A stretch of DNA of 64,000 nt, taken from Candidatus Zipacnadia bacterium. Its GTDB lineage: Bacteria; Armatimonadota; Zipacnadia; Zipacnadales; UBA5352. The notes beneath the pieces were generated by a model that ran no database searches, was not told the DNA's origin, and saw nothing but the letters and a program-made list of their open reading frames with translations. The position numbers and the translations under genes were made by a program. Where the stretch lies: the NCBI GenBank assembly GCA_029820295.1, contig JALGVA010000005.1:1025-65024 (forward strand). The letters are read 5' to 3'. Below, in pieces: positions 34,343 to 51,460 of the stretch; within the stretch, counting starts at the first letter, position 1; each line of letters starts with the position of its first letter.

Positions 34343-35239
34343 TCAGCGCGCGACAGCCGCGACGATCTCGCCCATCGCGTCCTCCCAACCCTGCGCCATG
34401 ATGTGCAGGCCCTGGCAGCACGGCGCGACCGCGGCCGCGATCTGCCCCGCCAGCTCGAGGGCGACGGCGCGCAGGTCTCCCGGATCAGCCTCGTTCAGAC
34501 GCTGGATGAGCCACGGCGGCACGTTCACCCCCGGGATGCGCGCATTCATGAAGCGCGCCATCCGGGGGGACTTGACCGGGATCAGGCCCGCCAGCACCGG
34601 CACCCCAAGCGCGCCGGCCCGCGCCATGAAGCGCTCAAACCGCGGCGGGTCGAACACCGCCTGAGTCTGGATGAACTCAGCGCCGGCGTCGATCTTCTTG
34701 CGCAGCTTGAGAATCTGAAGCTCCACGTTGTCGGCCTCGGGCGCCACCACCGCGCCCAGGCACAGGTTGGTAGCCGCCGCCAGCGGCGCACCCGTCATGT
34801 CACGGCCCTCGTTGAGTCCGCGCGCCACGTGCAGAAGCTGCACGGAGTCGAGCTCGAAAACCGATCTGGCGTCGGGATGATCGCCCAGCACCATATGGTC
34901 GCCGGTCACGATGAGCACGTTGCGCACGCCGAGCGCATGCGCGGCCAGCAGATCGGCCTGTAGCGCGATGCGGTTGCGGTCACGACAGGTGACCTGCCAG
35001 ACCGGCTCGATGCCCTGTTCCTTCATCAGACGCGCCATCGCCAGCGGGCTCATGCGCAACATCGCGCCCTGACCGTCGGTCACATTGACCGCGTCGGCGA
35101 CCCGCGCGACCATGCGCGCCGCGGCCAGCGCCTTGGATGGGTCCGCGCCCCTGGGTGGCGCCACCTCGCCGGTGACTGCGAAGCCGTGTTGCGCCACCAC
35201 TTCGGTCAGCTTTGCGCCCGTCCGCCACCGATTATTCAT
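34343..35239 (-). CDS. metF: Methylenetetrahydrofolate reductase, MetF (MetV-associated type)
   Basis: MTHFR TIM-barrel motifs (NVTDGQGA, LIVTGDH, FIQTQAVFD). 298 aa. Confidence 0.85.
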   Translation of the reverse strand: MNNRWRTGAKLTEVVAQHGFAVTGEVAPPRGADPSKALAAARMVARVADAVNVTDGQGAMLRMSPLAMARLMKEQGIEPVWQVTCRDRNRIALQADLLAAHALGVRNVLIVTGDHMVLGDHPDARSVFELDSVQLLHVARGLNEGRDMTGAPLAAATNLCLGAVVAPEADNVELQILKLRKKIDAGAEFIQTQAVFDPPRFERFMARAGALGVPVLAGLIPVKSPRMARFMNARIPGVNVPPWLIQRLNEADPGDLRAVALELAGQIAAAVAPCCQGLHIMAQGWEDAMGEIVAAVAR

Positions 35240-35867
35240 CGGAGGTGACCCGGAAGCTCATTGGTTGGCGATAGCGCTCCAGGAGCTTCAGGTTCCCGTC
35301 GGCCTTGAGCCGCCGGTAGATCAGCTCCCAGACGCAAGGACGGTCGGGGAAGACTTCACAGCGGCCCGATTGGGCACCGCCGCAGGGGCCGTTCATGAGC
35401 TGCTTGGGGCAGAAGCTGTGCGGGCACAGGCCGCCGGCGGCCCGCGCGATGCAGTCATCGCACAGATCGCACTCCTCGACGGTCATGGCGCCGCCCCCGG
35501 TGGTCGTGCCGGTAATCGTCTGCACTCCGGACACCAGTGGCAGGTCCGTCACCTGCGCCACCGCCGGTTCGGCCTGGGGACATGCCAGCAGCACGATCAC
35601 CCCGGCGCGTTCGAGGGCGTCGGCGTGGTCGCTCAGCACCCTTCGGGCCACCTGCACATCGCACGTGGCAGCTCCGGGCTCCGGCGCCGCCCAGTCCGCC
35701 ACCTCAACACCCTCTGCGGCCAGTTGCTCGGCCAGCTCGCGGCACTGCTTGGCTCCGCCGAACCGCTCGCGCGTGGCGCATCCGCCGCAGCCGAGCACGA
35801 AGACCGGCGCACCGGCGGGCAGGCGACTGATGATTACCTCCAGAGGGGTCGGCACGACCCGGCGCAT
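35232..35867 (-). CDS. metV: MTHFR C-terminal-like zinc-ribbon/Cys-rich subunit MetV
   Basis: Cys clusters (VLGCGGCAT..., CDLCDDCIARAAGGLCPHSFCPKQLMNGPCGGAQSGRCE) typical of the MetV/MTHFR_C small subunit of acetogen-type MetVF. Overlaps metF by 8 nt. Confidence 0.7.
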   Translation of the reverse strand: MRRVVPTPLEVIISRLPAGAPVFVLGCGGCATRERFGGAKQCRELAEQLAAEGVEVADWAAPEPGAATCDVQVARRVLSDHADALERAGVIVLLACPQAEPAVAQVTDLPLVSGVQTITGTTTGGGAMTVEECDLCDDCIARAAGGLCPHSFCPKQLMNGPCGGAQSGRCEVFPDRPCVWELIYRRLKADGNLKLLERYRQPMSFRVTSDE

Positions 35868-35879
35868 GTCACTGCCCTC

Positions 35880-36677
35880 CTACAGCGTCCCGCTGCGGTA
35901 TGCCTGCAGGTAGCCGGCGCACCACGCATCGCGACCCGCCAGCGCCTCGGCGGCGTGCAGCGTCGCGCGCAGCGGCCGGTCGGTGGGGTCGAGGATGGCG
36001 CTGTCGAGCCCGGCGGCCACCGCCTGCGCGAGGAAGACGCGGTTGAGCAGCGCCCGCTCCGGCAGCCCGAAAGAGACGTTGCTGATCCCGCAGATCAGAT
36101 GACACTCCGGGCGCGCCGAGGCGATGGCCCGCATCGCCTCGCACGCGGCCCGGGCCCCGGCCCCATCGACGCTCAGCGGCGTCACTACCGGGTCCACGAA
36201 GATGTCGACCGCGGGGAGGCCACGATCCGTCAGCTCGCCGATCAGCCGCAGCGAGGCCTGCGCCCGCCCGTGCCCGGTCTCAGGCACCCCCGCATCGGTC
36301 ATCGCCAGCGCGACGATCCGCACTCGCCTCCCGCCCAGCACCGCCAGCGTCTCCTCCAGCCGGGCGCCCTCGAGAGTGACCGAGTTCACCAGCGGCGGCG
36401 CGTCCCCCCGGTACTCGCTCAGCCCCGCGGCCATCGCCGCCGGGCTGGGCGTGTCGATGCACACCGGCGCATCCACCGCCTGCCCCACGGTGCGCACCAG
36501 CCACCCCATCAACTCCACCTCACGCGCACCGACCGCCCCGACGTTGCAGTCGAGGTAATCGGCCCCGGCCTCCACCTGCCGCCTGGCGAGGTCGGCGATG
36601 GCGTCGGCATCGCGCCGCTCCAGCGCCGCTCGCACCGGTGCCCGCGTGCCGTTGATCAGTTCGCCGACGATGATCAT
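35880..36677 (-). CDS. Pterin-binding methyltetrahydrofolate methyltransferase (AcsE/MeTr/MtrH-like)
   Basis: Internal ATG giving MIIVGELINGTRAPV... (compare AcsE MLIIGERING...). DHPS-like TIM barrel, 265 aa. GAGGGAGA RBS. The upstream 125 codons of the track ORF were rejected as low-complexity. Confidence 0.75.
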   Translation of the reverse strand: MIIVGELINGTRAPVRAALERRDADAIADLARRQVEAGADYLDCNVGAVGAREVELMGWLVRTVGQAVDAPVCIDTPSPAAMAAGLSEYRGDAPPLVNSVTLEGARLEETLAVLGGRRVRIVALAMTDAGVPETGHGRAQASLRLIGELTDRGLPAVDIFVDPVVTPLSVDGAGARAACEAMRAIASARPECHLICGISNVSFGLPERALLNRVFLAQAVAAGLDSAILDPTDRPLRATLHAAEALAGRDAWCAGYLQAYRSGTL

Positions 36678-37603
36678 GTATCTCCCTCTTCTCCCACCCC
36701 CAGCCCGCGCACCAGCGCGGTCAACGCGCGGCACAGCGGCGCCGGCAGCCCGCGCTGCTCGGCACGGCGCGCGATCTCGCCGTTGATGAAATCGATCTCC
36801 GTGCGCCGCCCCGCGCTCACGTCCTGCAGCATCGACGAGCGGTTCTGCGCGGTCTGTCGGCAGATGGCCTCGACCGGCCCGGCCATGTCCTCGCGCACGA
36901 ACACCCCGCAGTTGCGCGCGACGTCGGCGGCCTCCTCGGCCACCGCACCCAGCAGCTCCAGCAGCTCCGGTACCTCCACCAGCATCCCGTTGCGCAGGCC
37001 GGTCAGCGCGGTCAGCGGATTGATCGCGGCGTTCACGATCGCCTTCGCCCACAGCGCCTCGTCGATGGCAGGCGTGCGTTCGCAGTCGATGCCGCCTCGC
37101 GCGAGCAGCGCCACGGCATCTCGGGCCCGATGCTCGGCGCCGCTGGGCGAGCCGATCTGCGCGACCCCGCGCCCGGCCTCACGCACGTGCCCCTCGCCCA
37201 GCAGCGTGGCGCCGGTCGTGGTCGTCCCCGCCAGCACACACGCCTCCGGCACCACCTGCGCGATGCGCTCGTAGTTGCCCAGCCCGTTCTGCAGCGTCAG
37301 CACGCCGGACGACTCGTCGAGCGCCGGCAGCGCGTGGCGCGCGGCTACGTCTGTGTCGTAGGCCTTGACGACGATGATCGCCAGCGTCGCGGGATGAAAG
37401 TCGGCCGCGTCGGCGCTGCACGCCACCGGTACCGTGGTCTGCGCGCCGTCGCGCTCAACGATGATGCCCTGCTCGGCGATGCGCGCCGCCCGATCCGCGC
37501 GGTGGTCCAGCAGCCCCACGCGCACACCGCCCTCGGCCAGCAGCGCCGCGTGCAGGCAGCCCATCGCGCCCGGCCCGACGATCAACACCTCCACCCCGCT
37601 CAC
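36674..37603 (-). CDS. panE: 2-dehydropantoate 2-reductase (ketopantoate reductase, PanE/ApbA family)
   Basis: N-terminal GxGxxG (VLIVGPGAMG). ApbA_C domain. 309 aa. ATGA overlap with the downstream gene. Confidence 0.8.
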   Translation of the reverse strand: MSGVEVLIVGPGAMGCLHAALLAEGGVRVGLLDHRADRAARIAEQGIIVERDGAQTTVPVACSADAADFHPATLAIIVVKAYDTDVAARHALPALDESSGVLTLQNGLGNYERIAQVVPEACVLAGTTTTGATLLGEGHVREAGRGVAQIGSPSGAEHRARDAVALLARGGIDCERTPAIDEALWAKAIVNAAINPLTALTGLRNGMLVEVPELLELLGAVAEEAADVARNCGVFVREDMAGPVEAICRQTAQNRSSMLQDVSAGRRTEIDFINGEIARRAEQRGLPAPLCRALTALVRGLGVGEEGDT

Positions 37604-38952
37604 GTCTCGTCCTCCTCGGGGCCGTGCGGCTTGAGGCCGCGCAGGCCCTCGCCGCGCTGCTGGTGCCAGCGCTCCAGCTCGGCTACCTGCGCCAGCGTAC
37701 TGCCCGCGTCGATCTCCGCCTTCTCGCGCCGCTCGCGCTCCATCACGGACATGGCGCGGTTCGCGATGCCCACGGCCTGCTCGCGCGGGACCACGATGAC
37801 GCCGTCGTCATCGGCGATGATCCAGTCGCCGGTGCGGATCGTGGTCTCGCCGATCTTGAGCGGCACCCCGATCATGCCCATGCCCTTGGGCTCGCCCGCG
37901 TTCGGTGTGCGCAGCGCGCAGAACGCCGGGAAGTCAAGCTCGCCGATCTCGCGCGTGTCGCGCATCGCACCGTTGATCACCACGCCGCCGAGTCCGCGCG
38001 AGATGCAGCTCTTGGTGGCCTCCTCCCCCCACACCGCCGGTCCCTCGCCGCGGACGTCGATGACCAGCACGGCGCCCTCGTCGGCCTGGTCGATGGCCTC
38101 AACCGACTTCGCCCAGTCGCCCGGGTAGGTCCACACGGTCAGCGCCGGCCCGCACACCTTGAGGCCCGGCTTGACCGGGAAGATGCCCGGAACAAGTCCG
38201 CGCCGGTGCTGCGCGTCGGAGACATTCGCCGCCGAGCAGCGCATGAAGATCTCGCGCAACTGCTCGGCGCCGCCGCGCTTGAACAGCTCGGTCTCCACCG
38301 CCTCACCCGACGCCATGGCCTCCGCGATGGCGCGCGCGGCCGCGGTGGCGTCGGGGGCCTTGATGATCGCCCCGCCGACGATGACTATGTCCGCGCCGGC
38401 CTTCACCGCCTCGGGCGCGGTCTCGGAGTTGATGCCCCCCGCGACGGCGATCCGGCAGTCCACGGCATCGCGCACCGACCGCAGCGCGTCCATCGGGTCG
38501 GCGCCGACCATCTGCTCGTCGATGGCGGTGTGAATCCCGACGATCGCCGCGCCCAGCTCCTCGGCGCGCCGCGCGCGCTCCACCGGCGTCCGGCAGCCGA
38601 TCAGGTCCACCTGCACCAGCGCGTCGTAGTTGCGCCCGGCCTCCACGCACTCGGCGATGGTCTCGTCCGAGGCCGCCGCCAGCACGGTCACCACCTGCGC
38701 GCCGGCCTTGGCGGCCATCTCGACCTCGGCGCGGCCCGCGTCCATGATCTTCAGGTCCGCGACCACGGTCAGCGCCGGGAACTCCTCGCGCAGGGCGCGC
38801 ACCGCCGCCATGCCCTCGCTCTTGATCAGAGGCGTGCCCGCCTCGACCCAGGTCGCGCCCCCCGCCACCGCCTCGCGCGCCGCGCGCAGCGCCTGGCTGA
38901 GGTTGATGAAGTCCAGCGCCACCTGCAGAGTCGCCTCGCCCGCCATCGTCAT
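37600..38952 (-). CDS. Fusion: OMPDC-suprafamily 3-hexulose-6-phosphate synthase / 3-keto-L-gulonate-6-P decarboxylase-like domain, plus RraA-like (class II aldolase / DlpA) domain
   Basis: N-terminal LQVALDFINL...DLKIMDAG...GADIVIVGGAI is the HPS/KGPDC fold. C-terminal VIDVRGEGPAVWGEEAT...GGVVINGAMRDTREI is the RraA family signature. Start at M50 (ATGACGATGGCG) with a GAGAGGGG RBS. Confidence 0.75.
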   Translation of the reverse strand: MTMAGEATLQVALDFINLSQALRAAREAVAGGATWVEAGTPLIKSEGMAAVRALREEFPALTVVADLKIMDAGRAEVEMAAKAGAQVVTVLAAASDETIAECVEAGRNYDALVQVDLIGCRTPVERARRAEELGAAIVGIHTAIDEQMVGADPMDALRSVRDAVDCRIAVAGGINSETAPEAVKAGADIVIVGGAIIKAPDATAAARAIAEAMASGEAVETELFKRGGAEQLREIFMRCSAANVSDAQHRRGLVPGIFPVKPGLKVCGPALTVWTYPGDWAKSVEAIDQADEGAVLVIDVRGEGPAVWGEEATKSCISRGLGGVVINGAMRDTREIGELDFPAFCALRTPNAGEPKGMGMIGVPLKIGETTIRTGDWIIADDDGVIVVPREQAVGIANRAMSVMERERREKAEIDAGSTLAQVAELERWHQQRGEGLRGLKPHGPEEDET

Positions 38953-38960
38953 CGCCCCTC

Positions 38961-40100
38961 TCAGAGGCCGGTCACGTCCGCCATGTACACGTTGCATGGC
39001 CCGCCCGCGTCCGAGGTGAACAGCGCCCAGCGGTCGTCGGGGCTGAAGATCGGGTGCGGATGCGACTGCTGCTTCGTCCACGAGGTGTCGTGGCGGCACA
39101 GCCGCGTGACCTCGCCGCGCCCGTTAACGTGCCGGATGATCGACATGTACGCCCGCCCGTCCGGGTCGTCGGGCGCGAGGTAGCCGCAGTCGCCGACCAC
39201 CAGCGTGTTGTCCGAGTTCGACTGGATGTGCCCCGGACGCGGGCCGGGCAGCAGGAACTGCCGCAGCCACGAGCCGTCCGGCCGCACGAAGCAGTTGTAG
39301 TGCAGCGCCTCGCCCTCAGACTCGCCGATCACCTGGAAGCCAACCTCGCCGGTGCGCGTGAAGTACTCGTGGCAGCACGACTCGCCCAGGTGCTGGCGGA
39401 ACAGCGGCTGCGCCTGCCGCCCGCGCCGCACCGACGCATCCACGGTCCACATGCGCTGCCTCACATGCGAGCCGCCCTCATGGCAGAACAGGATCAGGTC
39501 CGGCCGGGTCGGGTGGATGCATACGTGCGAGATCCAGTTGCGCTCGCCCCAGACCGCCTCCGCGCCGCCCGTCGAGGTGTCGATGCGCATGATCACGCAC
39601 GCCGGGTGCTGGTAGTAGCGCTCGGCCATGGTCGAGTAGATCACGCCGGTCTCGGTGCTCAGCTCCGAGCGCTCCATGTAGGCGAAGGCCACGTGGCTGC
39701 CGTCGGCCGTGCAGGTGGGCAGCGCCGGGCGGAAGCCGTCGGGGACGCGGTAGAGGTCCTCGGTCTGCAGCGTCGCGAGATCGGTGACCTTGAGGGTGGC
39801 GTCCTGGAAGTGGAAGAGCCGCCCACCCGGGTCGAGGCACGCCTGCGAGAAGCTGGACACCAGGTTCTCGGTGACCTGCACCATGCGCCGGTCGGCGATC
39901 TCGAGCAGGAAGTAGGCCCTGCCGCCCGCACGGTCGGAGCTGATGACGACGCGCTCGGCGCCGTCGCCCACGAACGAGGTAGAGGTGAAGTACAGGTGCA
40001 CATTCTCGGAGCCGTCGCCGGTCAGCCGCCGCACCAGCGCGCCGGTCTCGGGGTCGGCCCACTCCTCGATCTGCGCCTCGAACACATCGCCCACGGCCAT
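38961..40100 (-). CDS. Oligogalacturonate lyase-like (PL22) seven-bladed beta-propeller protein
   Basis: C-terminal HPHPIFSPDDRWALFTSDAGGPCNVYMADV is typical of the OGL/TolB-like propeller C-terminus. 379 aa. Family assignment is moderately confident. Confidence 0.55.
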   Translation of the reverse strand: MAVGDVFEAQIEEWADPETGALVRRLTGDGSENVHLYFTSTSFVGDGAERVVISSDRAGGRAYFLLEIADRRMVQVTENLVSSFSQACLDPGGRLFHFQDATLKVTDLATLQTEDLYRVPDGFRPALPTCTADGSHVAFAYMERSELSTETGVIYSTMAERYYQHPACVIMRIDTSTGGAEAVWGERNWISHVCIHPTRPDLILFCHEGGSHVRQRMWTVDASVRRGRQAQPLFRQHLGESCCHEYFTRTGEVGFQVIGESEGEALHYNCFVRPDGSWLRQFLLPGPRPGHIQSNSDNTLVVGDCGYLAPDDPDGRAYMSIIRHVNGRGEVTRLCRHDTSWTKQQSHPHPIFSPDDRWALFTSDAGGPCNVYMADVTGL

Positions 40101-40106
40101 CGCGCG

Positions 40107-40727
40107 TCAGCTCCTGTCGCTTCGGGCGTCGATGACTCCGTCCTCGGTAACGATCACCGATACGCGCACATCCCACGCTTCGCGCGGCACCTCATCCACG
40201 ATCTGGCTGGCGAAGGCGACCGCGACCGCCGCGCCGCTGTCCACCAGGTCGCCGCGCACGTTCAGGATGTAGTCGTAGTACCCGCCGCCGTAGCCCAGCC
40301 GCCCGCCGTGCCGGTCGAAGGCCAGCCCGGGGACGAGGATGAAGTCGATGTCGCTCTCCGTGCATTCCGGACAGTTCCCCGCGATCGGCTCGGGGATGCC
40401 GCTCCATCCGGGGACAAGTTGTGTCTCCGGGTCGACAACCTCGTGCAGTGCCAGCGCCTCCTCCGGCCCGCGCACGCGCGGCAGCACCAGCCGCGCACGC
40501 GAGCGCACGGTGTGTGCGATCAGCCGGTCGGTGCGCACCTCGCTGCCGATGCTGGCGAACAGCAACCGCACCCGCGCCCGCCGGTAGCTGCTCAGCAGCA
40601 TGACCCGGCGGGTGATCTCAGCGCTGCGCTCCTCGATCTCCGCCGGCGCCAGCGCGTCGCGCGCACGGAGCGCTTCCTCGCGCAGCGCCTGCTTGCGCTC
40701 GGCGGCGTTCAAGGCTCCTCCCGCCAC
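40107..40727 (-). CDS. 5-formyltetrahydrofolate cyclo-ligase (MTHFS)
   Basis: LVPGLAFDRHGGRLGYGGGYYD motif characteristic of 5-FTHF cycloligase. Confidence 0.8.
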   Translation of the reverse strand: MAGGALNAAERKQALREEALRARDALAPAEIEERSAEITRRVMLLSSYRRARVRLLFASIGSEVRTDRLIAHTVRSRARLVLPRVRGPEEALALHEVVDPETQLVPGWSGIPEPIAGNCPECTESDIDFILVPGLAFDRHGGRLGYGGGYYDYILNVRGDLVDSGAAVAVAFASQIVDEVPREAWDVRVSVIVTEDGVIDARSDRS

Positions 40728-41926
40728 GCGCCCATGATGGCGTCGGTCATGCGCGCCACCTGCACCATCGCCGCGACGTCGTGCACGCGGATGATGTCCG
40801 CCCCGCCCGCGATGGCCAGTGCGCAGGTGGCCGCTGTGCCCATCAGCCGCTCGTCCGCAGGCACGCCGCCCAGCACTGTGCCGATGGTGGACTTGCGCGA
40901 GGTACCGACCAGCACGCCCGGCCCGAGGCCGCGCAGCTCACGCAGGCGGCGCAGGATCTCGAGGTTGTTCGCCACCGTCTTACCGAAGCCGAAGCCGGGG
41001 TCGATCACCAGGCGGTCGCGCTCCACGCCGCCCGCCATCGCGGCTGCGACGCGCTCGGCCAGGAAGCCGTAGATGTCGGTCATCAGGTCATCGTAGTGCG
41101 GCGCCTGCTGCATGGTGCGCGGCTCGCCCTGCATGTGCATGATGCACGCCGCCGCGCCGGTCTCCGCGACCGCCTCGATCATGCCGTCGGCGCGCAGGCC
41201 GAAGACGTCGTTGATCATCCCCGCGCCCGCCGCCACCGCCAGCCGCGCCACCTCCGGCTTGCTCGTGTCGATCGAGATCACGGCCCCAAGCTCGGCCAGC
41301 GCCTCCACGACGGGCAGCGTACGCTCAAGCTCCTCCTCGAGCGCCACCGCCTCGCTGCCGGGGCGCGTGGACTCGCCGCCCACGTCGAGGATGTCGGCTC
41401 CGGCCGCGATGAAGCTCGCCGCCTGCTCCACGGCGGCATCGACGTCCGCCCCGAGGCCGTCACCGGAGAACGAATCCGGCGTCACGTTGATGATGCCCAT
41501 CACGAGCGTGCGCTCGCCCAGCGGCAGCTCGCGGTCCACGCAGCGCAGCGGCGGGCGCGCATCTGTGTCGAAGGACGTGACGGTCGCGACCACCTCGCTC
41601 GCGATCGTGCCGAGCCCGAACGGCCCGTCCGCGAGGCGTTCGGCCAGCCGCGCGAAAGTCTGCGGATCGCCCAGCAACACCACCGGCCGCGGCGTGTCGT
41701 CGAAGGCTGCGACGTCGCGGTGCACGGCGCACTCGCCGCCCAGCGCGAGCATCTCCTGGCGCAGCAGCGCCGCCGCCCGGCCGTGGACGGCCTCCACCCG
41801 CACGGCACGCACACGCGCGCGGTCGGCCAGCGCCTCGACGGCCGCAGGCGGCACGCCGACGGCGCGCATCTCCGTCAGCAGGGCATCGCGACCATCGAGA
41901 TCGAGAACTCGGGCCTGGTGGGACAT
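40709..41926 (-). CDS. folP: Dihydropteroate synthase with a ~125-aa N-terminal extension domain of unknown function
   Basis: DHPS pterin-binding core starts at LVMGIINVTPDSFSGDG (aa ~131), with DVGGESTRPG, IDTSKPEVA and GAGMINDV motifs. The N-terminal 125 aa have no recognisable DHPS homology. Confidence 0.8.
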   Translation of the reverse strand: MSHQARVLDLDGRDALLTEMRAVGVPPAAVEALADRARVRAVRVEAVHGRAAALLRQEMLALGGECAVHRDVAAFDDTPRPVVLLGDPQTFARLAERLADGPFGLGTIASEVVATVTSFDTDARPPLRCVDRELPLGERTLVMGIINVTPDSFSGDGLGADVDAAVEQAASFIAAGADILDVGGESTRPGSEAVALEEELERTLPVVEALAELGAVISIDTSKPEVARLAVAAGAGMINDVFGLRADGMIEAVAETGAAACIMHMQGEPRTMQQAPHYDDLMTDIYGFLAERVAAAMAGGVERDRLVIDPGFGFGKTVANNLEILRRLRELRGLGPGVLVGTSRKSTIGTVLGGVPADERLMGTAATCALAIAGGADIIRVHDVAAMVQVARMTDAIMGAWREEP

Positions 41927-44848: not shown

Positions 44849-47800
44849 TCAGCGTGCGACCTGGGCGGAGCGCAGCGCCTGCACCCGCTGGCCGTTGTCG
44901 GCGACGGCCTCGATGCGGATCAGGTAGGTGCCCGCGGGCACTACGGTGCCCTCGGCGCTGCGCAGGTCCCACAGTTGCTCGCCCTGCCCGGCCGGCACCG
45001 CGCGCGACTGCACCAGCCTGCGCACCGACCGGCCTGCGATGTTGAGCACCTCGATGCTCAGGTTGCACGTCGAACTCACGTCGTAGGTCACCATCAGACC
45101 GGCGCCGCCGACGCTCGCCGCGGCACTGCGGATCGCCAGGCTCTCCGCGCCGCGCGGCGCGACCTCGAGCGCGAAGTGACGCAGCGCACCATCCGTGCCC
45201 GTGGTGAACACGTAGGCCGGCAGCGTGCGCGCATACATGCGCTCGCCGGTGTCGAGGTCGGTCAGGTAGACCGCCAGGTCGGCAGGCACCGCGCTCAGGT
45301 CGGGCAGCAGCACCTGCACCTCGGCGTCGGCCAGGTCGGTCTCGACCGAGAAGGTCCAGACCATCGCGCCCGCGCCGGCCGGGCGGATGTCATGGGCGAG
45401 GCGCGCACCGGAGTCATCGGTGAAGTAGACGTCCACCGTGCCGGGCACGCGCGGCGGGTTCTCCACGCGGTAGCCCTGGCCCTCGGCACCGCTGCCCACG
45501 CCCGCGACGGTGCTGATGTCGGCGCGGCCCGCGGCGTGGGCGACGATCGGCACCAGCCAACCGCCCTCGGCGACGTCGGCCGCCGCCGCGGGCCCGACCG
45601 CCAGTGACGCGGCGCTCACGCCGGTGGGCGCGGCCACGTTGAGCGTGCCCGCGGCGCCGGTGGCCTTGAACCACGCGCCCTCCCAGGCCTCGATGTAGTT
45701 GCGCGCCGAGTTGATGGCCGGACTGCGGGAGATCATCCGATAGCTGCCGATGGTGTTGTCCCAGATGAACGCGTAGGGGCGGATCTCGGTGCTGCCCGCC
45801 GCCGTGATGTTGGCCAGAGGCAGCGCGCTCTCATACATGTTCCCGAGCATGTTCCAGCCCGTGGAGACGCCCACGCTGAAGGTGCCGGCGGCGCCGACCG
45901 GGTCGCCGGGGATGTTCACGGTAGTCTGGGTCGGGAAGTCCACGAAGAACGCCGCGCCCGGCCGCACCACCAGCTCGAGGTGGTCCGGGTCGTCGGCCGC
46001 CCGCACGTAGCCCGGCGGCGTCGCCGAAGCATTCCAGCGGGCCACCTGCAGCGTCTGGAAGATATCGACCGCGCGGTCGCGCCCGGTGGGCGGATCCGCG
46101 GGCACGGCCACCATCTGCAGGCCGCGCGCGAACTGGTGCACGAACTCACTGTAGGCGGTGAAGTTGTTGCCGGTGGATGACGGCGGCACCGTCACCTGCA
46201 GCGTCGCGGGGTCGAACGCCAGCCCCGCCTTGGTTGCGGTCAGCACCACCGTCGAGGCGGGAACCCCGCCGATGGTGAATTCACCGGCCTCGCTGGTCAC
46301 CGCAGTGCGCGTCCCGTCGCTCACCGTCACACCGGCGATGCGGTTGCCCAGGCTATCGCTGACGCGACCGGAGATGGTGTAGGTCATGGTCGTTGCGGTG
46401 AAGTCCACGCCGGTGGCATCCGTCCCGGCCACGTTGACGGTGCGCGAAGCGGGCGTGTAGGTGAAGTCCTGGTAGCCGTCGCTGTTGGCGTCACGGCTGC
46501 ACGCGACCGTGTAGATGCCGTTGGGCACGTCCGCGATGGTGAAGTCCCCGTTGGCGTCGGTCAGTGCGCTGCGCGTGCCGTCGCTGACCTGCACACCGGC
46601 CACCCCGGCGCCGTCCTGGGTGACACGCCCGGTGATGTCGTGCGTGCGCTCCATGCCCACGAAGTCGATATCACGCGCCGACGGGCCCACGGTCACCTGC
46701 TGCGCCACCGGGGTGAAGTCGTACTCCGGGAACGAGGGCGTGACCGTGTAGGTGCCGGCCAGCAGCCCCTGCACGCGGTAGGCGCCGTTGCCGTCGGTGC
46801 CCACCGTCTGCCCGTCCACGGTCACATCCACGCCCGGCAGCGGCTCGCCGGCGACGTCGGTCACGAAGCCCCTGATCTCGTAAGTGGGCTCGTCCTCGGT
46901 CGTGAAGCTCCAGTCGGCCGTGCCGGCGTTGCCCGCCTCGTCCGCGGCCTCGACGTGCACATCGTAGTCGGTGGCGTAGTCCAGGTCGGCGGGCGGCTGG
47001 TAGGTCACGATGACCTCGGGCTCACCCACCTGCGCGGGGGCCGGACCGGTGGTCAGGTCGCCGGTCACGTCCGTGCCGTTGACGCTCATCGCGATGCTGC
47101 CCTCGTCAACGCCCGAGCCGCCGTCGCGCACCCGCACGGAGATGGCGCTGCTCACGAGTACATCGCTGGAGCCATCCGGCGGGCTGAACTGGTCGAACAT
47201 CGGCGCGACCACATCGGTCGCCGAACTCTCCTGCCACGTCTCGGTGGGCATGGCGTTGCCCGCGATGTCAGACACGTCCACGGAGAAGTCCACCGTGGCG
47301 TTGAAGCCCCAGCCGCCTGGCGCCGCATAGCTCACCACCACGTCCAGCGGGTCGGTGGCGTCGATGGTCGCGCCGCCGGTCACATCGGTGCCGTCCACCT
47401 GGAAGACGAGCGTGGTCACGTCCACGCCGGAGATGTCGTCCTCGATGTGGAAGGTCACCGTGCCCGCGTTGGCGTCGAAGGCCTTGTTGGTCACCTGCGG
47501 CGCCTGCGTGTCGGACGTGGTGTCGAAGTAGTAGACCTCGTGCAGCTCGTTGCTGCTGTTGTCGTCCACGCGCACGGCGACCATCACGTGCTCGTTATAG
47601 CTGAACGGCCCCGCCGGATCGAAGTCCACATGGATGCCGCCGGCGATCGGCGTGACCACCGCGCTCGGGGTGACCGTGATCCCGTTGACGGCCATGCTCA
47701 GCGTCGACGCATCCACGCCGGTGCCGTCGTCGAGGATGTCGAAGGAGATGTTGCTGTCACGCGTCACCTCGGTGGCGTCCGGCGCCGGATCCTGGTTCGC

Positions 47801-50800
47801 CAGGTAGGGCGCCGTCGTGTCCGCGGCGGTCTCCTCCGCGGTGTTGACCGCGCTGTTCTCGTTGGGCACCTCGTCGTAGGCGGTTACGGCGTAGAACCAG
47901 GTCTCACCGGGGTTGACCGCGTTGTCGGTCCAGGTCTGGGTGCCGGCCGCCACGTCGGCGACCTGGGTCGCCGCGCCGGTGTCGGCGAAGTTGGCAGCCG
48001 AGCGCCAGACATGGTAGCCGGCCACGTCCACCTGGGCCGCTTCGTTGTAGCCGGTCCAGTCGAGGCCGATGGTCATGCCGTCCGGCCCGGTGGTGGCGTC
48101 GAGGTCCAGGGCTGCCAGCGCGGCGGGCGCCACCGTGTCCTGATAGCCCGCGTTGTCGGTGGCCGAGTCGCCGCCCTGCGGGTCATCGTAGGTGAGGGTG
48201 AGCACCCGTCCCAGGGGCCCGGCCGGGAGGTGGAAGGTCCCGTTGTTGTCCGCGCCCGAGCGGCCCAGCGAGTTGATCTGGCCGCGGAACACGCCGGTGC
48301 TGTTGCCGGTCTCGGTGAGAGTCAGCGTCTCCGTCTCACCGCCCGAGTTGTCGGTGATGGTCACACCCACCGTGTCCGCCACGCCGGGGTTCTCGTTCTC
48401 GTCCGCGTCGGTGACCTCGGCGTAGAGGGTGTCGCCCTCCTCATAGACGGCGACATCCGCCCAGGCCGCGTCGGTGAAGCGCGCTGCGCTGGCGCTGCCG
48501 ATGATCGGGCCGGGCAGCGTGTCGGGCGCCGCGGGCAGGCGCACCGGCGAGTTGGCGACGTAGAAGAAATGCTCCCACGCGCCGTAGCCCAGTGTCGCAC
48601 CGTTGACCGTGGCCAGATAGGTCACGCCGACGTCGTAGGCGTCGGTGTCGGCCGGGTCGCGGGCCATGACGACCTCGAGCGTGCCCGCGCCGATGTTGAG
48701 CACGATGTCATCGGGCGGCGGCAGGTTGGTGGTGTCGATGTACTCGACTGAGAAGGCGAAGTCGGTCGCCAGACCGCCGAACAGGGGCGTGAGGGTCGGA
48801 CTCTGAAGCGTGAAATCGGCCATGAACATCATGTTCGACGCGGGATCGAGGCTCAGCTCGGCGTTGTGCCAGTCCGACTCGGCGCCCTGGTCGTCGAAGG
48901 CCTTGATCCGGTAGTAGTAGGGGCGGTCGGTCAGCAGCGCCTGGCCGGGAAGGAGCTGGTACTCGGTGACCCCGGCGCCCAGCATCATGTCCAGGTGCGG
49001 TGTGCTGAAGTCCGGATTGTCGTCGATCACAAGCTGATAGGTGAGCGTGTGCGCCGGGTCGGCCGCGTCATCGTCGCTGGCGTCCGGCCAGTCGATCAGC
49101 GGCGTCACCGTGCGGATGTTGCCGTCGGGCACGAAGTCCGCGCGCTGCAGGGCCACATCCCAGTACGGCGGGTTGTTGAGATCGACCCGGAAGAGCTGGG
49201 TCGAGCGGTAGGGCACTCCGCCGGCGTAGGTCCACAGCGCGGAGGCCTTGTTGTCGTCATCGAAGGTGCGCAGGCGCCAGTACCACACGCCCTCCGACAG
49301 CGGCGCGGTATCGGGGATGGTGAACTCGGTCGCGCCCGCGCTGGTGGTGTACTCGTAGGCCACCGGCGCGAAGGTCTTGCTCTGCGAGAGCTGCAGCTTG
49401 TAGTAGAGCAGGTCGGACGTGTCGGTGGCGTTGATATCGCTGGCGGCGTCCCACATGAAGGTGGGCGTCGAGTCGTGCACCACCAGGACGTCCTGCCCGC
49501 TCAACGTGTCCGGGAAGTCGGGCGACTCGGGCGAGTAGCCTCCCGGCGAAATCGCCGGCGGGTCGTTGACCAGCGGCCCGTCCATGTAGGTACCGTCGGC
49601 CACGGGGTAGCGCGCCTGCGGTGAGGGGCTCTCGGGCACCTCGTCAACCACGAAGTAGTGACGGTGATGCCCGTCGCCGATCTCGTTGTCGGCCGGGTCG
49701 GTGCGGATGCCCAGGGAGCTGACCGTATAGCGCTCGCCGTTGGTGTAGTCGCCATCCTGCAGCTCCGCGGCGGCTGTGGTATCGACCTCCATGGCCAGCG
49801 CCTGCAGCGGCGTGCCGGCGGTGGTGTTCTCGATCAGCAGCCACACGCGGCCGCTGGGAGGCGGGTTGTCGTCAAGGTCGGTGTAGGTGATCCCGAAGAC
49901 GTAGGTGTCGCTCTGCAGGCCCTCGACGGGCGCCATCGCAGGCTCGGTCAGTGTCGGGGCGTGCGCGCCCGGGCCCGGGATGTAGGCGGTGCCGATCCCC
50001 AGGTCATCCACCAGCACCTCCGCGGCGCCGGCGGTGTCCGCGCTGTCGTAGGTCTCGTCGGGGCTACCGTCGAGGTCGTTGTCGATGAAGATGGTGAAGG
50101 TCTCGATGGAGCCCTTGTACTTGAACTCAGCATCGGTGTACTGCAGGCGCCACTGATCGTCCAGCGTGGGCGGGAGGTGGGTCAGGGCGTCGGTGAGGTC
50201 GAGATAGGCGTGGATGTTCGCCTTGTCGTCGGCGCCCTGCTGGTTGAAGGCGACCCAGCTCCACGAGCCGTCCTGGCGGCCGATGGTGAGCTCAACGTCA
50301 TCCCGCGATTCGCACGGGAGGTCGCACTCGGCCCACGCGGAGGGCTGGTAGCCGATCTTGTCGGTCATGAAGAAGGCGGGCCCCGCGCCCTCGAACTCCT
50401 CGGTCTCGCCATCGGCGTTGATGGGATCGATCAGGCCCATGACGAAGCCGTAGGACAGATAGGCCTTGCCGTCGCCCGCCCAGCCGGAGCCCCAGGAGTT
50501 AATGAACAGGAAGCCGCCGAAGATGTCCTGGTCGTCCTCGTCGGGATCGAGTTCGCCGCTGGCGTCGTCGTCGGCGTCGATGTCGCCGTCGCCGTCGGAG
50601 TCATCGGCGTCGCCCCGGTCCTTGTCGTCGTCGTAGCCGACGATGCAGATGGCGTGGTAGCCCGTGATCTCAGCATCGTCAGCAGGGCGCTCGTAGTAGT
50701 CATCGTCCGCGATCTTGGCGGCGAAGTCGTCGTAGATCGGGATGCCGATGACGAACGGTTCGCCCAGGTCGAGCTGGTGCTTGAGCGCGGCGAGATCGAT

Positions 50801-51460
50801 CTCAGTGGTAGTCGGCCACCACTCGTAGCTGTCGGCGCGGAACGGCATAGCGTCGAGCCAGATCTGCGCGCCGCCGGCGTACTCACTGGGCCAGCTCTTG
50901 AAGTCGGCGGCGGAGTAGGGCACGTCGGCGAGGGTGGCACAGCCCTTCTCGGTCATGAGCTGCATTGCCGCTGAGATGCTGCTGCCGTCATCCGTGCCAC
51001 CGTTGATCTGGTTGTAGATGAAGGCCGGGCTGAACTGGTGGTCGGTGGTTGACAGATCCCAGGACGAGTGCTCCTGCCCCTCCTGGTAGCTCTTGTAGTA
51101 GTAGCCGGTGGCCCACGCCGTGCACGAGCCCTGCGCCCCCTGGTTGCCGACAGGGGGCATGCTCGACGAGATGTCGGCCGTGGCCATGGGCAGCAGCGAC
51201 TTGCCGTAGGGCGGCAGGGGCAGGTCGGCCACGGGGATGGCCGCAAGGTCGGCTGGGGTCTCGGGGATCGCGCCCAGCTTAACCACCTGGCCCCCGGGCA
51301 GCACGTAGATCGGCGCGCCGCCCTGAGCGGTGGCCGGGGGGGCCATGGTCGCGACGCACAACACGCCGACGGCGATCGCCGCCACCAGCGACAGGGCTCG
51401 CAGGCTCCGCGTGTCTCGGGTGTTCCGCGACTGGTTCCTCATTCTCCCGATGCCTCCCAT
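44849..51460 (-). CDS. Giant secreted multidomain protease: papain-like C1 cysteine peptidase head, then Fn3/Ig-like domains, then three CarboxypepD_reg domains, then a beta-sandwich, then a FlgD-Ig/T9SS-type C-terminal sorting domain (2203 aa; alternative start M7 at 51442)
   Basis: Signal peptide. C1 catalytic triad context QGAQGSCTAWATGYY (Cys113), GYHAICIVGYDD (His269), FINSWGSGWAGDGKAYLSY (Asn321). Fn3 signatures (WYWRLRTFDD, YYYRIKAFDD). Repeated GRVTQDGAGVAGVQVSDGT-type CarboxypepD_reg units. C-terminal LSIEVLNIAGRSVRRLV...WDLRS..G..V..G.YLIRIEA matches the FlgD_ig / Por_Secre_tail pattern. Confidence 0.85.
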   Translation of the reverse strand: MGGIGRMRNQSRNTRDTRSLRALSLVAAIAVGVLCVATMAPPATAQGGAPIYVLPGGQVVKLGAIPETPADLAAIPVADLPLPPYGKSLLPMATADISSSMPPVGNQGAQGSCTAWATGYYYKSYQEGQEHSSWDLSTTDHQFSPAFIYNQINGGTDDGSSISAAMQLMTEKGCATLADVPYSAADFKSWPSEYAGGAQIWLDAMPFRADSYEWWPTTTEIDLAALKHQLDLGEPFVIGIPIYDDFAAKIADDDYYERPADDAEITGYHAICIVGYDDDKDRGDADDSDGDGDIDADDDASGELDPDEDDQDIFGGFLFINSWGSGWAGDGKAYLSYGFVMGLIDPINADGETEEFEGAGPAFFMTDKIGYQPSAWAECDLPCESRDDVELTIGRQDGSWSWVAFNQQGADDKANIHAYLDLTDALTHLPPTLDDQWRLQYTDAEFKYKGSIETFTIFIDNDLDGSPDETYDSADTAGAAEVLVDDLGIGTAYIPGPGAHAPTLTEPAMAPVEGLQSDTYVFGITYTDLDDNPPPSGRVWLLIENTTAGTPLQALAMEVDTTAAAELQDGDYTNGERYTVSSLGIRTDPADNEIGDGHHRHYFVVDEVPESPSPQARYPVADGTYMDGPLVNDPPAISPGGYSPESPDFPDTLSGQDVLVVHDSTPTFMWDAASDINATDTSDLLYYKLQLSQSKTFAPVAYEYTTSAGATEFTIPDTAPLSEGVWYWRLRTFDDDNKASALWTYAGGVPYRSTQLFRVDLNNPPYWDVALQRADFVPDGNIRTVTPLIDWPDASDDDAADPAHTLTYQLVIDDNPDFSTPHLDMMLGAGVTEYQLLPGQALLTDRPYYYRIKAFDDQGAESDWHNAELSLDPASNMMFMADFTLQSPTLTPLFGGLATDFAFSVEYIDTTNLPPPDDIVLNIGAGTLEVVMARDPADTDAYDVGVTYLATVNGATLGYGAWEHFFYVANSPVRLPAAPDTLPGPIIGSASAARFTDAAWADVAVYEEGDTLYAEVTDADENENPGVADTVGVTITDNSGGETETLTLTETGNSTGVFRGQINSLGRSGADNNGTFHLPAGPLGRVLTLTYDDPQGGDSATDNAGYQDTVAPAALAALDLDATTGPDGMTIGLDWTGYNEAAQVDVAGYHVWRSAANFADTGAATQVADVAAGTQTWTDNAVNPGETWFYAVTAYDEVPNENSAVNTAEETAADTTAPYLANQDPAPDATEVTRDSNISFDILDDGTGVDASTLSMAVNGITVTPSAVVTPIAGGIHVDFDPAGPFSYNEHVMVAVRVDDNSSNELHEVYYFDTTSDTQAPQVTNKAFDANAGTVTFHIEDDISGVDVTTLVFQVDGTDVTGGATIDATDPLDVVVSYAAPGGWGFNATVDFSVDVSDIAGNAMPTETWQESSATDVVAPMFDQFSPPDGSSDVLVSSAISVRVRDGGSGVDEGSIAMSVNGTDVTGDLTTGPAPAQVGEPEVIVTYQPPADLDYATDYDVHVEAADEAGNAGTADWSFTTEDEPTYEIRGFVTDVAGEPLPGVDVTVDGQTVGTDGNGAYRVQGLLAGTYTVTPSFPEYDFTPVAQQVTVGPSARDIDFVGMERTHDITGRVTQDGAGVAGVQVSDGTRSALTDANGDFTIADVPNGIYTVACSRDANSDGYQDFTYTPASRTVNVAGTDATGVDFTATTMTYTISGRVSDSLGNRIAGVTVSDGTRTAVTSEAGEFTIGGVPASTVVLTATKAGLAFDPATLQVTVPPSSTGNNFTAYSEFVHQFARGLQMVAVPADPPTGRDRAVDIFQTLQVARWNASATPPGYVRAADDPDHLELVVRPGAAFFVDFPTQTTVNIPGDPVGAAGTFSVGVSTGWNMLGNMYESALPLANITAAGSTEIRPYAFIWDNTIGSYRMISRSPAINSARNYIEAWEGAWFKATGAAGTLNVAAPTGVSAASLAVGPAAAADVAEGGWLVPIVAHAAGRADISTVAGVGSGAEGQGYRVENPPRVPGTVDVYFTDDSGARLAHDIRPAGAGAMVWTFSVETDLADAEVQVLLPDLSAVPADLAVYLTDLDTGERMYARTLPAYVFTTGTDGALRHFALEVAPRGAESLAIRSAAASVGGAGLMVTYDVSSTCNLSIEVLNIAGRSVRRLVQSRAVPAGQGEQLWDLRSAEGTVVPAGTYLIRIEAVADNGQRVQALRSAQVAR

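What the first reader, a model, noticed from the sequence alone, without database searches (positions are those of the whole stretch)
37600..38952. Single-polypeptide fusion of an HPS/KGPDC (OMPDC-fold) domain with an RraA-like class II aldolase domain
The N-terminal ~215 aa (LQVALDF..DLKIMDAG..IVIVGGAI) belong to the hexulose-6-phosphate synthase / 3-keto-L-gulonate-6-P decarboxylase family. The C-terminal ~230 aa carry the RraA/DlpA/HMG-CHA-aldolase signature (GDW..VEAI...GAVLVIDVRGE..AVWGEEAT..GGVVINGAMRD). Known HPS fusions are Fae-Hps and Hps-Phi. I do not recognise an Hps-RraA fusion. It would link formaldehyde or sugar-phosphate condensation with a second carbon-carbon lyase activity.
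Basis: partly seen in the sequence, partly recalled or inferred. Interest (0 to 1): 0.6.

Follow-up and report, generated by a model that had tools for sequence, protein, structure and literature searches.

The report
HPS fused to RraA-like aldolase
The gene is a real single protein joining a hexulose-6-phosphate synthase to an RraA-like metal-dependent aldolase; this fusion is already catalogued and widespread, but gene neighbourhoods suggest an undescribed role: making the vitamin B5 precursor ketopantoate from sugar-derived formaldehyde, in place of the usual enzyme PanB.

Summary
A continuous minus-strand ORF (37600-38952; likely start 38946, 448 aa) encodes an HPS-type OMPDC-fold domain (aa 8-213) and an RraA-like class II aldolase domain (aa 233-432). 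Catalytic residues are intact in both halves.

The novelty claim fails. NCBIfam has a full-length model for this architecture (PRK07028), and an identical protein is in NCBI/JGI on an independent contig. Full-length relatives occur in at least 80 species-level genomes across many bacterial and archaeal phyla. No solved structure or paper on the fusion was found.

The new lead is gene context. In 26 of 80 loci, from seven phylum-level lineages, the fusion lies within 1.4 kb of pantothenate/CoA genes: PanE, PanG-type reductase, PanC, PanD, archaeal PPS, CoaBC. PanB is never present in these loci, although it accompanies PanC in 36 of 80 generic PanC loci. PHI precedes the fusion in 11 loci. In this window the fusion's stop codon overlaps the start of a PanE gene.

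Best reading (inferred, about 0.45): the HPS half releases formaldehyde from hexulose-6-phosphate. The RraA-like half adds it to 2-oxoisovalerate to give ketopantoate, independently of folate, displacing PanB.

The parts
37600..38952 (-). Hps-RraA-like fusion ORF (450 aa from ATG 38952; more likely 448 aa from ATG 38946; stop TGA 37600-37602)
38314..38931 (-). N-terminal HPS domain (aa 8-213), (beta/alpha)8 OMPDC suprafamily. Mg ligands E37 and D66; K68, D71, H141; HPS-type D116, I144, A169
   Evidence: 3ajx TM 0.91, rmsd 1.7 A
38257..38313 (-). Interdomain linker (aa 214-232). Reading frame is continuous; pLDDT dips to about 77
37657..38256 (-). C-terminal RraA-like class II aldolase domain (aa 233-432). 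R250, G278-D279-W280, K282, G309, R331-D332, E335, R399 and E407 are conserved
   Evidence: 3k4i TM 0.87-0.88; 3noj TM 0.81
37603..37656 (-). Non-conserved, low-confidence C-terminal tail (aa 433-450)
38955..38960 (-). Shine-Dalgarno-like GAGGGG, 8 nt upstream of the second ATG (38946)
36674..37603 (-). PanE/ApbA 2-dehydropantoate 2-reductase gene. Its GTG start overlaps the fusion's TGA (GTGA), implying translational coupling
   Evidence: TIGR00745 273 bits, cut-off 141
35880..36680 (-). AcsE-type methyl-THF:corrinoid/Fe-S protein methyltransferase (same operon direction)
34343..35867 (-). MetF (34343-35239) and MTHFR C-terminal/MetV-like protein (35232-35867)
38961..41926 (-). Upstream co-directional genes: beta-propeller (Pectate_lyase22-like) 38961-40100, 5-formyl-THF cyclo-ligase 40107-40727, DHPS with N-terminal extension 40709-41926

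Best explanation
The gene encodes a genuine two-domain enzyme of the database-known PRK07028 architecture. Shown: both halves keep complete catalytic constellations, and the gene is translationally coupled to a ketopantoate reductase (PanE). Inferred mechanism: the HPS half runs in the cleavage direction, D-arabino-3-hexulose-6-phosphate -> ribulose-5-phosphate + formaldehyde. Hexulose-6-P would come from fructose-6-P via PHI, which is encoded next to the fusion in other lineages. The RraA-like half is a Mg2+-dependent class II 2-oxoacid aldolase. It would enolise 2-oxoisovalerate and add the nascent formaldehyde to give 2-dehydropantoate (ketopantoate). This is the folate-independent 'ketopantoaldolase' reaction, orphan EC 4.1.2.12 (from memory). 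PanE here, or PanG-type reductases elsewhere, would then reduce it to pantoate for PanC or the archaeal PoK/PPS route. The fusion would thus be a non-orthologous replacement of PanB, using a sugar phosphate rather than methylene-THF as C1 donor and keeping formaldehyde enzyme-bound.
For: Domain identity and intact catalytic residues. E37, D66, K68, D71, D116, H141 and R331, D332, G309 are invariant in 12 sequences down to 43% identity. Published roles of R123/D124/E199/G101 in HMG/CHA aldolase, and the statement that most RraA homologues are probable class II pyruvate aldolases: PMC5065237. The model is confident (pLDDT 90, pTM 0.78) and each half superposes on its family. Context: in 26 of 80 species-level loci (17 of 46 with at least 3 kb on both sides) a pantothenate/CoA gene lies within 1.4 kb of the fusion. 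The arrangements are fusion->PanE (Armatimonadota, a Deltaproteobacterium, Hecatellales, Asgard, Nitrososphaerota); PanG-type DUF2520->YjbQ->fusion with PanC (Actinomycetota); PanC->PanD->YjbQ->fusion (L028); PPS->fusion->PanE->PLP decarboxylase (Asgard L065); and fusion->PanE->CoaBC (L050). DUF2520 proteins are PanG ketopantoate reductases (PMC4572677, PMC11626117). A Pfam-validated PanB probe finds no PanB in any of the 80 loci or the window. It does find PanB in 36 of 80 generic PanC loci and 13 of 16 generic DUF2520 loci. Fisher p = 0.003 and 1e-4. Bona fide PHI (TIGR03127) lies immediately upstream in 11 loci. Stand-alone close relatives of the C-half lie directly downstream of PanE genes (L167, L171). 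Other HPS fusion partners also handle formaldehyde or hexulose-6-P: PHI and AFOR, and Fae (from memory). In the window, the fusion TGA overlaps the PanE GTG.
Against: There is no biochemical evidence, and no paper on the family was found. Two thirds of the loci show no pantothenate gene nearby; the Methanomicrobiales context is uninformative. Whole-genome absence of PanB could not be tested. PanB is often unlinked to panC, so its local absence is only suggestive. Characterised RraA-fold aldolases use pyruvate, not 2-oxoisovalerate, as donor. Folate and Wood-Ljungdahl genes (AcsE-type methyltransferase, PTPS, CdhD, MetF, DHPS) are about as frequent neighbours (about 20 loci) and dominate this window's operon. 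PanE-family enzymes can reduce other 2-oxoacids. HPS thermodynamics favour condensation, so cleavage must be pulled by downstream steps.
Confidence: 0.45

Rival explanations
1. Reverse RuMP pentose synthesis with formaldehyde disposal. HPS makes ribulose-5-P from hexulose-6-P. The RraA-like aldolase detoxifies or assimilates the formaldehyde by adding it to pyruvate, giving 4-hydroxy-2-oxobutanoate, which is then reduced by the PanE-like enzyme or transaminated to homoserine.
For: PHI is adjacent in 11 loci. Characterised RraA-fold aldolases are pyruvate-specific (PMC5065237). Many carriers are anaerobes or archaea in which RuMP-type pentose synthesis is known (own knowledge). Most loci lack pan genes.
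Against: This does not explain the specific linkage to PanC, PanD, PPS and CoaBC, or to two unrelated ketopantoate reductase families. It also does not explain why PanB is missing exactly where the fusion sits.
Confidence: 0.2
2. One-carbon link to folate. HPS-derived formaldehyde is handed to tetrahydrofolate, with the RraA-like domain acting as a Fae-like activating or scaffolding module. This would feed methylene-THF into MetF/AcsE and C1 biosynthesis, or conversely drain methylene-THF-derived formaldehyde into sugar phosphates.
For: The window operon contains DHPS, 5-formyl-THF cyclo-ligase, an AcsE-type methyltransferase, MetV-like protein and MetF. The pterin-binding methyltransferase is adjacent in 9 loci, PTPS in 8 and CdhD in 4. 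The Fae-Hps fusion is a precedent (own knowledge).
Against: The RraA fold with a conserved Arg-Asp metal/enolate site is a 2-oxoacid-binding catalytic machine. No pterin-binding feature is evident (PMC5065237). Pan and fol genes are classically neighbours in Actinobacteria (own knowledge), which can explain the co-occurrence. PanE lies between the fusion and the folate genes in Armatimonadota.
Confidence: 0.12
3. Ordinary HPS for formaldehyde fixation or detoxification, with the RraA-like half serving only as an oligomerisation or regulatory (RNase-regulator-like) module, as the database name 'ribonuclease regulator' implies.
For: The NCBIfam name. The N-half passes the HPS equivalog-domain cut-off. 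A divergent subfamily has lost the catalytic residues of both halves, showing the scaffold can persist without catalysis.
Against: The C-half scores far below the RraA equivalog cut-offs (63.9 against 136; 32 against 241). It keeps the aldolase residues R331, D332, G309 and E335 invariant across phyla. It occurs in archaea, which generally lack RNase E (own knowledge; PMC5065237 notes RraA homologues in organisms lacking RNase E). Context is biosynthetic rather than RNA-related.
Confidence: 0.13
4. Assembly or annotation artefact: two adjacent genes wrongly joined, or a pseudogene.
For: None found.
Against: The ORF is continuous. The identical gene is on an independent contig. At least 120 close and at least 80 species-level full-length homologues exist. 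A curated full-length HMM exists. The single-chain model is confident.
Confidence: 0.01

Closest known systems
NCBIfam NF005442 / PRK07028 'bifunctional hexulose-6-phosphate synthase/ribonuclease regulator'
   Same: Same two-domain order and length. The alignment is end to end (aa 7-432 to model positions 4-429 of 430, E 4.6e-163).
   Different: The score of 542.8 is below the curated equivalog cut-off of 593, so PGAP names close relatives just '3-hexulose-6-phosphate synthase'. The family name's 'ribonuclease regulator' is an untested transfer from E. coli RraA.
3-hexulose-6-phosphate synthase (HxlA/RmpA; Mycobacterium gastri 3AJX; TIGR03128)
   Same: Fold (TM 0.91, rmsd 1.7 A), Mg2+ and catalytic residues, and HPS-type discriminator residues. 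The score is above the curated cut-off.
   Different: Carries an extra C-terminal aldolase domain. It is proposed to act in the cleavage direction as a formaldehyde donor, not in methylotrophic fixation.
Hps-Phi (PDB 9LJ9) and Fae-Hps fusions of archaea
   Same: HPS fused to the enzyme that handles its product or substrate. The N-half is most similar to the 9LJ9 HPS domain (E 4e-54).
   Different: The partner domain is an RraA-fold aldolase, not a SIS isomerase or Fae. PHI is a separate neighbouring gene in 11 loci.
HMG/CHA aldolase (LigK/PcmE; P. putida 3NOJ) and catalytically active RraA-like proteins (3K4I, T. thermophilus 1J3L)
   Same: [quoted passage not shown]
   Different: Only about 25-32% identity. 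The score is far below the LigK equivalog cut-off (97 against 304.5). The family has its own invariant G-D-W-x-K motif (aa 278-282). There is no aromatic-degradation context, and a different donor/acceptor pair is proposed.
Ketopantoate hydroxymethyltransferase PanB (PF02548) and the orphan 'ketopantoaldolase' EC 4.1.2.12
   Same: Proposed same product (2-dehydropantoate) by Mg2+-enolate chemistry on 2-oxoisovalerate. The fusion occupies PanB's place in pan operons.
   Different: No sequence or fold relationship to PanB. The proposed C1 donor is formaldehyde released from hexulose-6-P, not 5,10-methylene-THF. This is a functional analogy only and is untested.

Membership tests
HPS (TIGR03128 RuMP_HxlA, EC 4.1.2.43) | Score above the curated HMM cut-off | tested here: met
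   212.6 bits against a cut-off of 200
HPS (TIGR03128 RuMP_HxlA, EC 4.1.2.43) | OMPDC-suprafamily (beta/alpha)8 fold with Mg2+ ligands Glu/Asp and the D-x-K-x-x-D motif plus catalytic His | tested here: met
   E37, D66, K68, D71 and H141 are invariant. Fold matches 3ajx at TM 0.91.
HPS (TIGR03128 RuMP_HxlA, EC 4.1.2.43) | HPS-type rather than KGPDC-type residues at KGPDC positions 112/139/169 (Asp/hydrophobic/Ala versus Glu/Arg/Thr; residue roles recalled from the Gerlt-lab KGPDC-to-HPS mutants, PDB 1XBX/1XBZ titles) | tested here: met
   D116, I144 and A169 are present. KGPDC models score below their cut-offs (100.6 against 250; 76.8 against 294).
HPS (TIGR03128 RuMP_HxlA, EC 4.1.2.43) | Catalyses Ru5P + HCHO <-> hexulose-6-P | not testable with these tools
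   Requires an enzyme assay
RraA-like / class II pyruvate aldolase (PF03737) | Pfam gathering threshold and alpha-beta-beta-alpha fold | tested here: met
   147.5 bits against a cut-off of 24.5. 3k4i TM 0.87-0.88 and 3noj TM 0.81.
RraA-like / class II pyruvate aldolase (PF03737) | Essential enolate-stabilising Arg and adjacent metal-binding Asp (R123/D124 of 3NOJ), and Gly lining the 2-oxoacid pocket (G101) | tested here: met
   R331, D332 and G309 are invariant. Residue roles come from PMC5065237.
RraA-like / class II pyruvate aldolase (PF03737) | Second acidic metal ligand (E199 of 3NOJ, or E/D three residues after the Asp in RraA-type enzymes) | tested here: inconclusive
   E335 (E/D in 10 of 12 sequences) and invariant E407 are candidates. 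The sequence alignment is ambiguous here and no coordinates were analysed.
HMG/CHA aldolase orthologue (TIGR02798 ligK_PcmE) | Equivalog cut-off | tested here: not met
   97.2 bits against a cut-off of 304.5
RraA, regulator of RNase E (NF006875 / TIGR02998) | Equivalog cut-off | tested here: not met
   63.9 against 136, and 32 against 241. The label 'ribonuclease regulator' is not justified.
PRK07028 bifunctional HPS/RraA family (NF005442) | Full-length collinear match to the model | tested here: met
   aa 7-432 to model positions 4-429 of 430, E 4.6e-163
PRK07028 bifunctional HPS/RraA family (NF005442) | Curated equivalog score cut-off | tested here: not met
   542.8 bits against a cut-off of 593. 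The protein is a member by architecture, outside the strict equivalog.
PanB / KPHMT (PF02548) | Sequence homology to PanB | tested here: not met
   No PF02548 hit for the fusion. Only functional analogy is proposed.

The most novel reading that the evidence does not exclude
Hps-RraA-like proteins are a widespread, folate-independent ketopantoate synthase. It is a two-active-site enzyme that takes a C1 unit from a sugar phosphate (hexulose-6-P, made from fructose-6-P by PHI or possibly YjbQ), passes it as enzyme-confined formaldehyde, and adds it to 2-oxoisovalerate. In doing so it replaces PanB in many anaerobic bacteria and archaea, and it gives a gene to the orphan activity EC 4.1.2.12.
Probability: 0.4. 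Interest if true: 0.8.

Novelty: new member of a known kind. Interest (0 to 1): 0.55.

Why it matters
As a domain architecture this is ordinary. It is catalogued, widespread and misnamed rather than unknown. It matters for three reasons.

1. The family has no experimentally established function. Its database names ('ribonuclease regulator', 'HPS/PHI', 'OMP decarboxylase family') are uninformative or wrong.

2. The neighbourhood data give a concrete, cheaply testable hypothesis for a non-orthologous replacement of PanB, the first committed step of pantothenate/CoA synthesis. The carriers include anammox bacteria, Asgard archaea, Thermoplasmatota and Actinomycetota.

3. If confirmed, it would be a natural example of formaldehyde relay between fused active sites, using a sugar phosphate as C1 donor. 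That is relevant to synthetic C1 and formaldehyde-aldolase pathways and to metabolic reconstructions that currently score pantothenate synthesis as incomplete.

Tried and rejected
- **Assembly chimera or frameshift:** rejected (continuous ORF, identical independent contig, hundreds of full-length homologues).
- **KGPDC rather than HPS for the N-half:** rejected.
- **True RraA or LigK orthologue for the C-half:** rejected.
- **Literature:** nine searches (HPS+RraA, 'ribonuclease regulator', ketopantoate+hexulose, ketopantoate+RraA, panB+HPS, ketopantoate+formaldehyde+archaea, missing KPHMT in archaea, and others) found nothing on this fusion or on an alternative ketopantoate synthase. PMC2978589 and PMC3571329 are not held.
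- **Solved structures:** none covers both domains. The AFDB50 fold library was unavailable.
- **Larger fusions with pan enzymes:** a 'Rosetta-stone' search found only HPS-PHI, AFOR-HPS and truncated forms.
- **Other contexts:** the Methanomicrobiales context is uninformative. The divergent subfamily has a polysaccharide context, probably a different role.
Full report
**1. Observation**

The window has about 72% G+C. A continuous ORF lies on the minus strand, 37600-38952. It translates to 450 aa, MTMAGEATLQVALDF...EEDET*.
- Pfam places OMPdecase/HUMPS (PF00215) at aa 8-209 (E 1.9e-35) and RraA-like (PF03737) at aa 242-387 (E 4.4e-43).
- The nucleotide sequence shows no stop or frameshift across the junction.
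- A GAGGGG Shine-Dalgarno-like element at 38955-38960 is 8 nt from the second ATG (38946). That start gives the 448-aa product, which is identical to database protein P0001.
- The same gene with the same neighbours is on an independent 13.5-kb JGI metagenome contig (L081).

**2. Is the architecture new? No.**
- NCBIfam NF005442 (PRK07028, 'bifunctional hexulose-6-phosphate synthase/ribonuclease regulator') matches aa 7-432 against model positions 4-429 of 430. E is 4.6e-163 and the score is 542.8 bits, just under the strict cut-off of 593.
- All 120 best database hits (66-100% identity, 430-466 aa) carry both Pfam domains. Named ones are mostly Armatimonadota MAGs.
- An exhaustive search of 50%-identity representatives finds several full-length clusters down to 43% identity. 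It also finds a divergent 24-30% subfamily.
- A scan of one genome per species returned 80 full-length loci. They come from Armatimonadota (Ca. Zipacnadia), Actinomycetota (Thermoleophilia, Geothermincolia), Planctomycetota including anammox genera, Desulfobacterota, Omnitrophota, Aerophobetes, Ratteibacteria, Thermoplasmatota, Asgard (Atabeyarchaeia), Hecatellales, Nitrososphaerota and Altiarchaeales.
- Methanomicrobiales also carry the fusion.
- Database names are inconsistent: 'HPS', 'OMP decarboxylase/HUMPS family', and JGI's 'HPS/6-phospho-3-hexuloisomerase', which is wrong.
- No solved structure spans both domains. 9LJ9 is an HPS-PHI fusion.
- No paper on the fusion was found.

**3. Anatomy**

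N-half:
- It exceeds the HPS equivalog-domain cut-off (TIGR03128, 212.6 against 200), while KGPDC models fail.
- Alignment to solved HPS/KGPDC structures shows Mg2+ ligands E37 and D66, plus K68, D71 and H141.
- It has the HPS-type D116/I144/A169 where KGPDC has E112/R139/T169.

C-half:
- It aligns to HMG/CHA aldolase 3NOJ. R123/D124 correspond to R331/D332, G101 to G309 and R40 to R250.
- These residues, and a family-specific G278-D279-W280-x-K282 motif, are invariant among 12 fusions down to 43% identity.
- According to PMC5065237, R123 is essential for stabilising the enolate, D124 and E199 bind the metal, and G101 lines the pyruvate pocket. The paper also states that most RraA homologues carry one of two catalytic motifs and are probably class II pyruvate aldolases.
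- The C-half fails the equivalog cut-offs for RraA and for LigK. It is neither a 'ribonuclease regulator' orthologue nor an HMG/CHA aldolase orthologue.

An AlphaFold2 model is confident (pLDDT 90.1, pTM 0.78). The halves superpose on 3AJX (TM 0.91) and on 3K4I/3NOJ (TM 0.81-0.88).

**4. Context in the window**

All of the following genes are on the minus strand:
- DHPS with an N-terminal extension (40709-41926)
- 5-formyl-THF cyclo-ligase (40107-40727)
- a beta-propeller protein (38961-40100)
- the fusion
- PanE (36674-37603; TIGR00745, 273 bits against a cut-off of 141)
- an AcsE-type methyl-THF methyltransferase (35880-36680)
- a MetV-like protein (35232-35867)
- MetF (34343-35239)

The fusion's TGA overlaps PanE's GTG (GTGA at 37600-37603), which indicates translational coupling.

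**5. Context elsewhere**

I clustered all ORFs within 5 kb of the fusion in the 80 loci, without prior labels. The recurrent neighbours are listed below.

| Neighbour | Loci (of 80) | Position or note |
|---|---|---|
| YjbQ/UPF0047 | 11 | immediately upstream |
| Bona fide PHI (TIGR03127) | 11 | immediately upstream; locus set disjoint from YjbQ |
| PanC | 11 | |
| DUF2520 Rossmann oxidoreductase | 10 | |
| PanE | 9 | immediately downstream |
| AcsE-type pterin methyltransferase | 9 | |
| PTPS | 8 | |
| CdhD | 4 | |

- DUF2520 proteins are PanG-type ketopantoate reductases, and PanG is the sole KPR of M. tuberculosis (PMC4572677, PMC11626117).
- Individual operons are telling. L028 reads PanC->PanD->YjbQ->fusion. 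Asgard L065 reads archaeal phosphopantothenate synthetase->fusion->PanE->PLP decarboxylase. Hecatellales L050 reads fusion->PanE->CoaBC.
- In total, 26 of 80 loci have a pantothenate/CoA gene no more than 1.4 kb from the fusion. Among loci with at least 3 kb of flank on both sides the figure is 17 of 46. These loci come from seven phylum-level lineages and show several different gene orders.

**6. Complementarity with PanB**
- A recalled E. coli PanB sequence was validated by Pfam (PF02548, E 8e-105).
- It detects no PanB in any of the 80 fusion loci or in the 64-kb window.
- As a control, 80 metagenomic loci were fetched around PanC relatives. PanB is adjacent in 36 of them, typically as DUF2520-PanB-PanC-PanD or DUF2520-PanD-PanB-PanC. 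None of these control loci has an HPS or RraA-like gene.
- PanB is present in 0 of 11 fusion loci with PanC, against 36 of 80 control loci (Fisher p = 0.003).
- PanB is present in 0 of 10 fusion loci with DUF2520, against 13 of 16 control loci with DUF2520 (p = 1e-4).
- In pan operons, therefore, the fusion occupies PanB's slot.
- Stand-alone proteins 46-68% identical to each other and about 46% identical to the C-half lie directly downstream of PanE genes (L167, L171). This ties the RraA-like half specifically to ketopantoate reduction.

**7. Mechanistic reading**

Shown:
- two intact active sites on one chain
- coupling to a ketopantoate reductase
- frequent linkage to PHI and to the pantothenate pathway, without PanB

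Inferred:
- HPS cleaves hexulose-6-P to Ru5P plus formaldehyde.
- The RraA-like Mg2+ aldolase enolises 2-oxoisovalerate and captures the formaldehyde, giving ketopantoate.
- KPR pulls the sequence forward.

The net reaction would be F6P + 2-oxoisovalerate + NADPH -> Ru5P + pantoate + NADP+. A fusion makes sense only if the halves share an intermediate, and formaldehyde is the obvious one. Other HPS fusion partners also handle formaldehyde or hexulose-6-P: PHI and aldehyde:ferredoxin oxidoreductase, and Fae (own knowledge). I put this specific function at about 0.4-0.45.

**8. Rivals**
- Formaldehyde plus pyruvate gives 4-hydroxy-2-oxobutanoate during reverse-RuMP pentose synthesis (0.2).
- A folate/C1 link, suggested by the window's own folate genes and by AcsE, PTPS and CdhD neighbours elsewhere (0.12).
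- A plain HPS with a non-catalytic RraA-like module (0.13).
- An artefact (about 0).

Pan and fol genes are classical neighbours in Actinobacteria (own knowledge), which may explain part of the folate signal. Two thirds of the loci are uninformative, as are the Methanomicrobiales loci. The divergent subfamily, which has lost H141, the AGG motif and R331, lies among polysaccharide-export genes and probably does something else.

**9. Verdict**

The claimed novelty of the architecture is wrong, because it is a catalogued and widespread family. The family is nevertheless functionally uncharacterised, and the context analysis yields a specific, testable and apparently unpublished hypothesis of PanB displacement. 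Decisive tests are a genome-wide PanB/fusion anticorrelation, complementation of a panB mutant, and an in vitro ketopantoate assay.

Noticed in passing
P0141, P0189, P0216 (representative proteins): Fusions of aldehyde:ferredoxin oxidoreductase (AFOR_N/AFOR_C) with a C-terminal HPS domain exist. This is another case of HPS joined to a formaldehyde-consuming enzyme.
   Followed up: partly
L006, L008-L011, L014, L019, L023, L027, L028, L079 versus L007, L012, L015-L017, L022, L032-L034, L042, L051: YjbQ/UPF0047 (a 'secondary thiamine-phosphate synthase' of unknown real function) and bona fide PHI occupy the same slot immediately upstream of the fusion, in disjoint sets of 11 loci each. The disjunction is not statistically significant (p = 0.35). 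YjbQ might substitute for PHI.
   Followed up: partly
P0174, P0177/P0293, P0192, P0195, P0265; L165 8001-9287: A divergent Hps-RraA subfamily (24-30% identity) has lost the HPS His and AGG phosphate motif and the aldolase Arg (TD/SD instead of RD). One member lies beside Bac_transf/Poly_export genes. It may be a pseudo-enzyme or have a different function.
   Followed up: partly
L167 531-1172; L171 2327-3085; L169 5001-5615: Stand-alone RraA-like proteins about 46-50% identical to the fusion's C-half exist. Two lie directly downstream of PanE-family genes. Another lies next to a BtpA-family TIM-barrel gene.
   Followed up: partly
window 40709-41926 (-): The dihydropteroate synthase (TIGR01496, aa 142-396) has an N-terminal extension of about 140 aa with no Pfam or NCBIfam match.
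   Followed up: no
window 34343-36680 (-): A MetF, MetV-like (MTHFR C-terminal) and AcsE-type methyltransferase cluster lies directly downstream of PanE. These Wood-Ljungdahl methyl-branch-like genes are in an Armatimonadota-type genome.
   Followed up: partly
window 38961-40100 (-): A 379-aa beta-propeller protein matches the oligogalacturonate lyase family (Pectate_lyase22, E 5e-39). It sits between the folate genes and the fusion and is conserved only in the closest relative (L002). Its role in this operon is unclear.
   Followed up: no
window 44849-51460 (-): A very large ORF of 2203 aa has a signal-peptide-like N-terminus and repetitive Ig-like or carboxypeptidase-regulatory-like segments. 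It is probably a surface protein.
   Followed up: no
one search hit table: JGI/IMG annotates many Hps-RraA proteins as '3-hexulose-6-phosphate synthase/6-phospho-3-hexuloisomerase', although they have no SIS domain. This is a systematic misannotation that could inflate apparent RuMP pathway completeness.
   Followed up: yes
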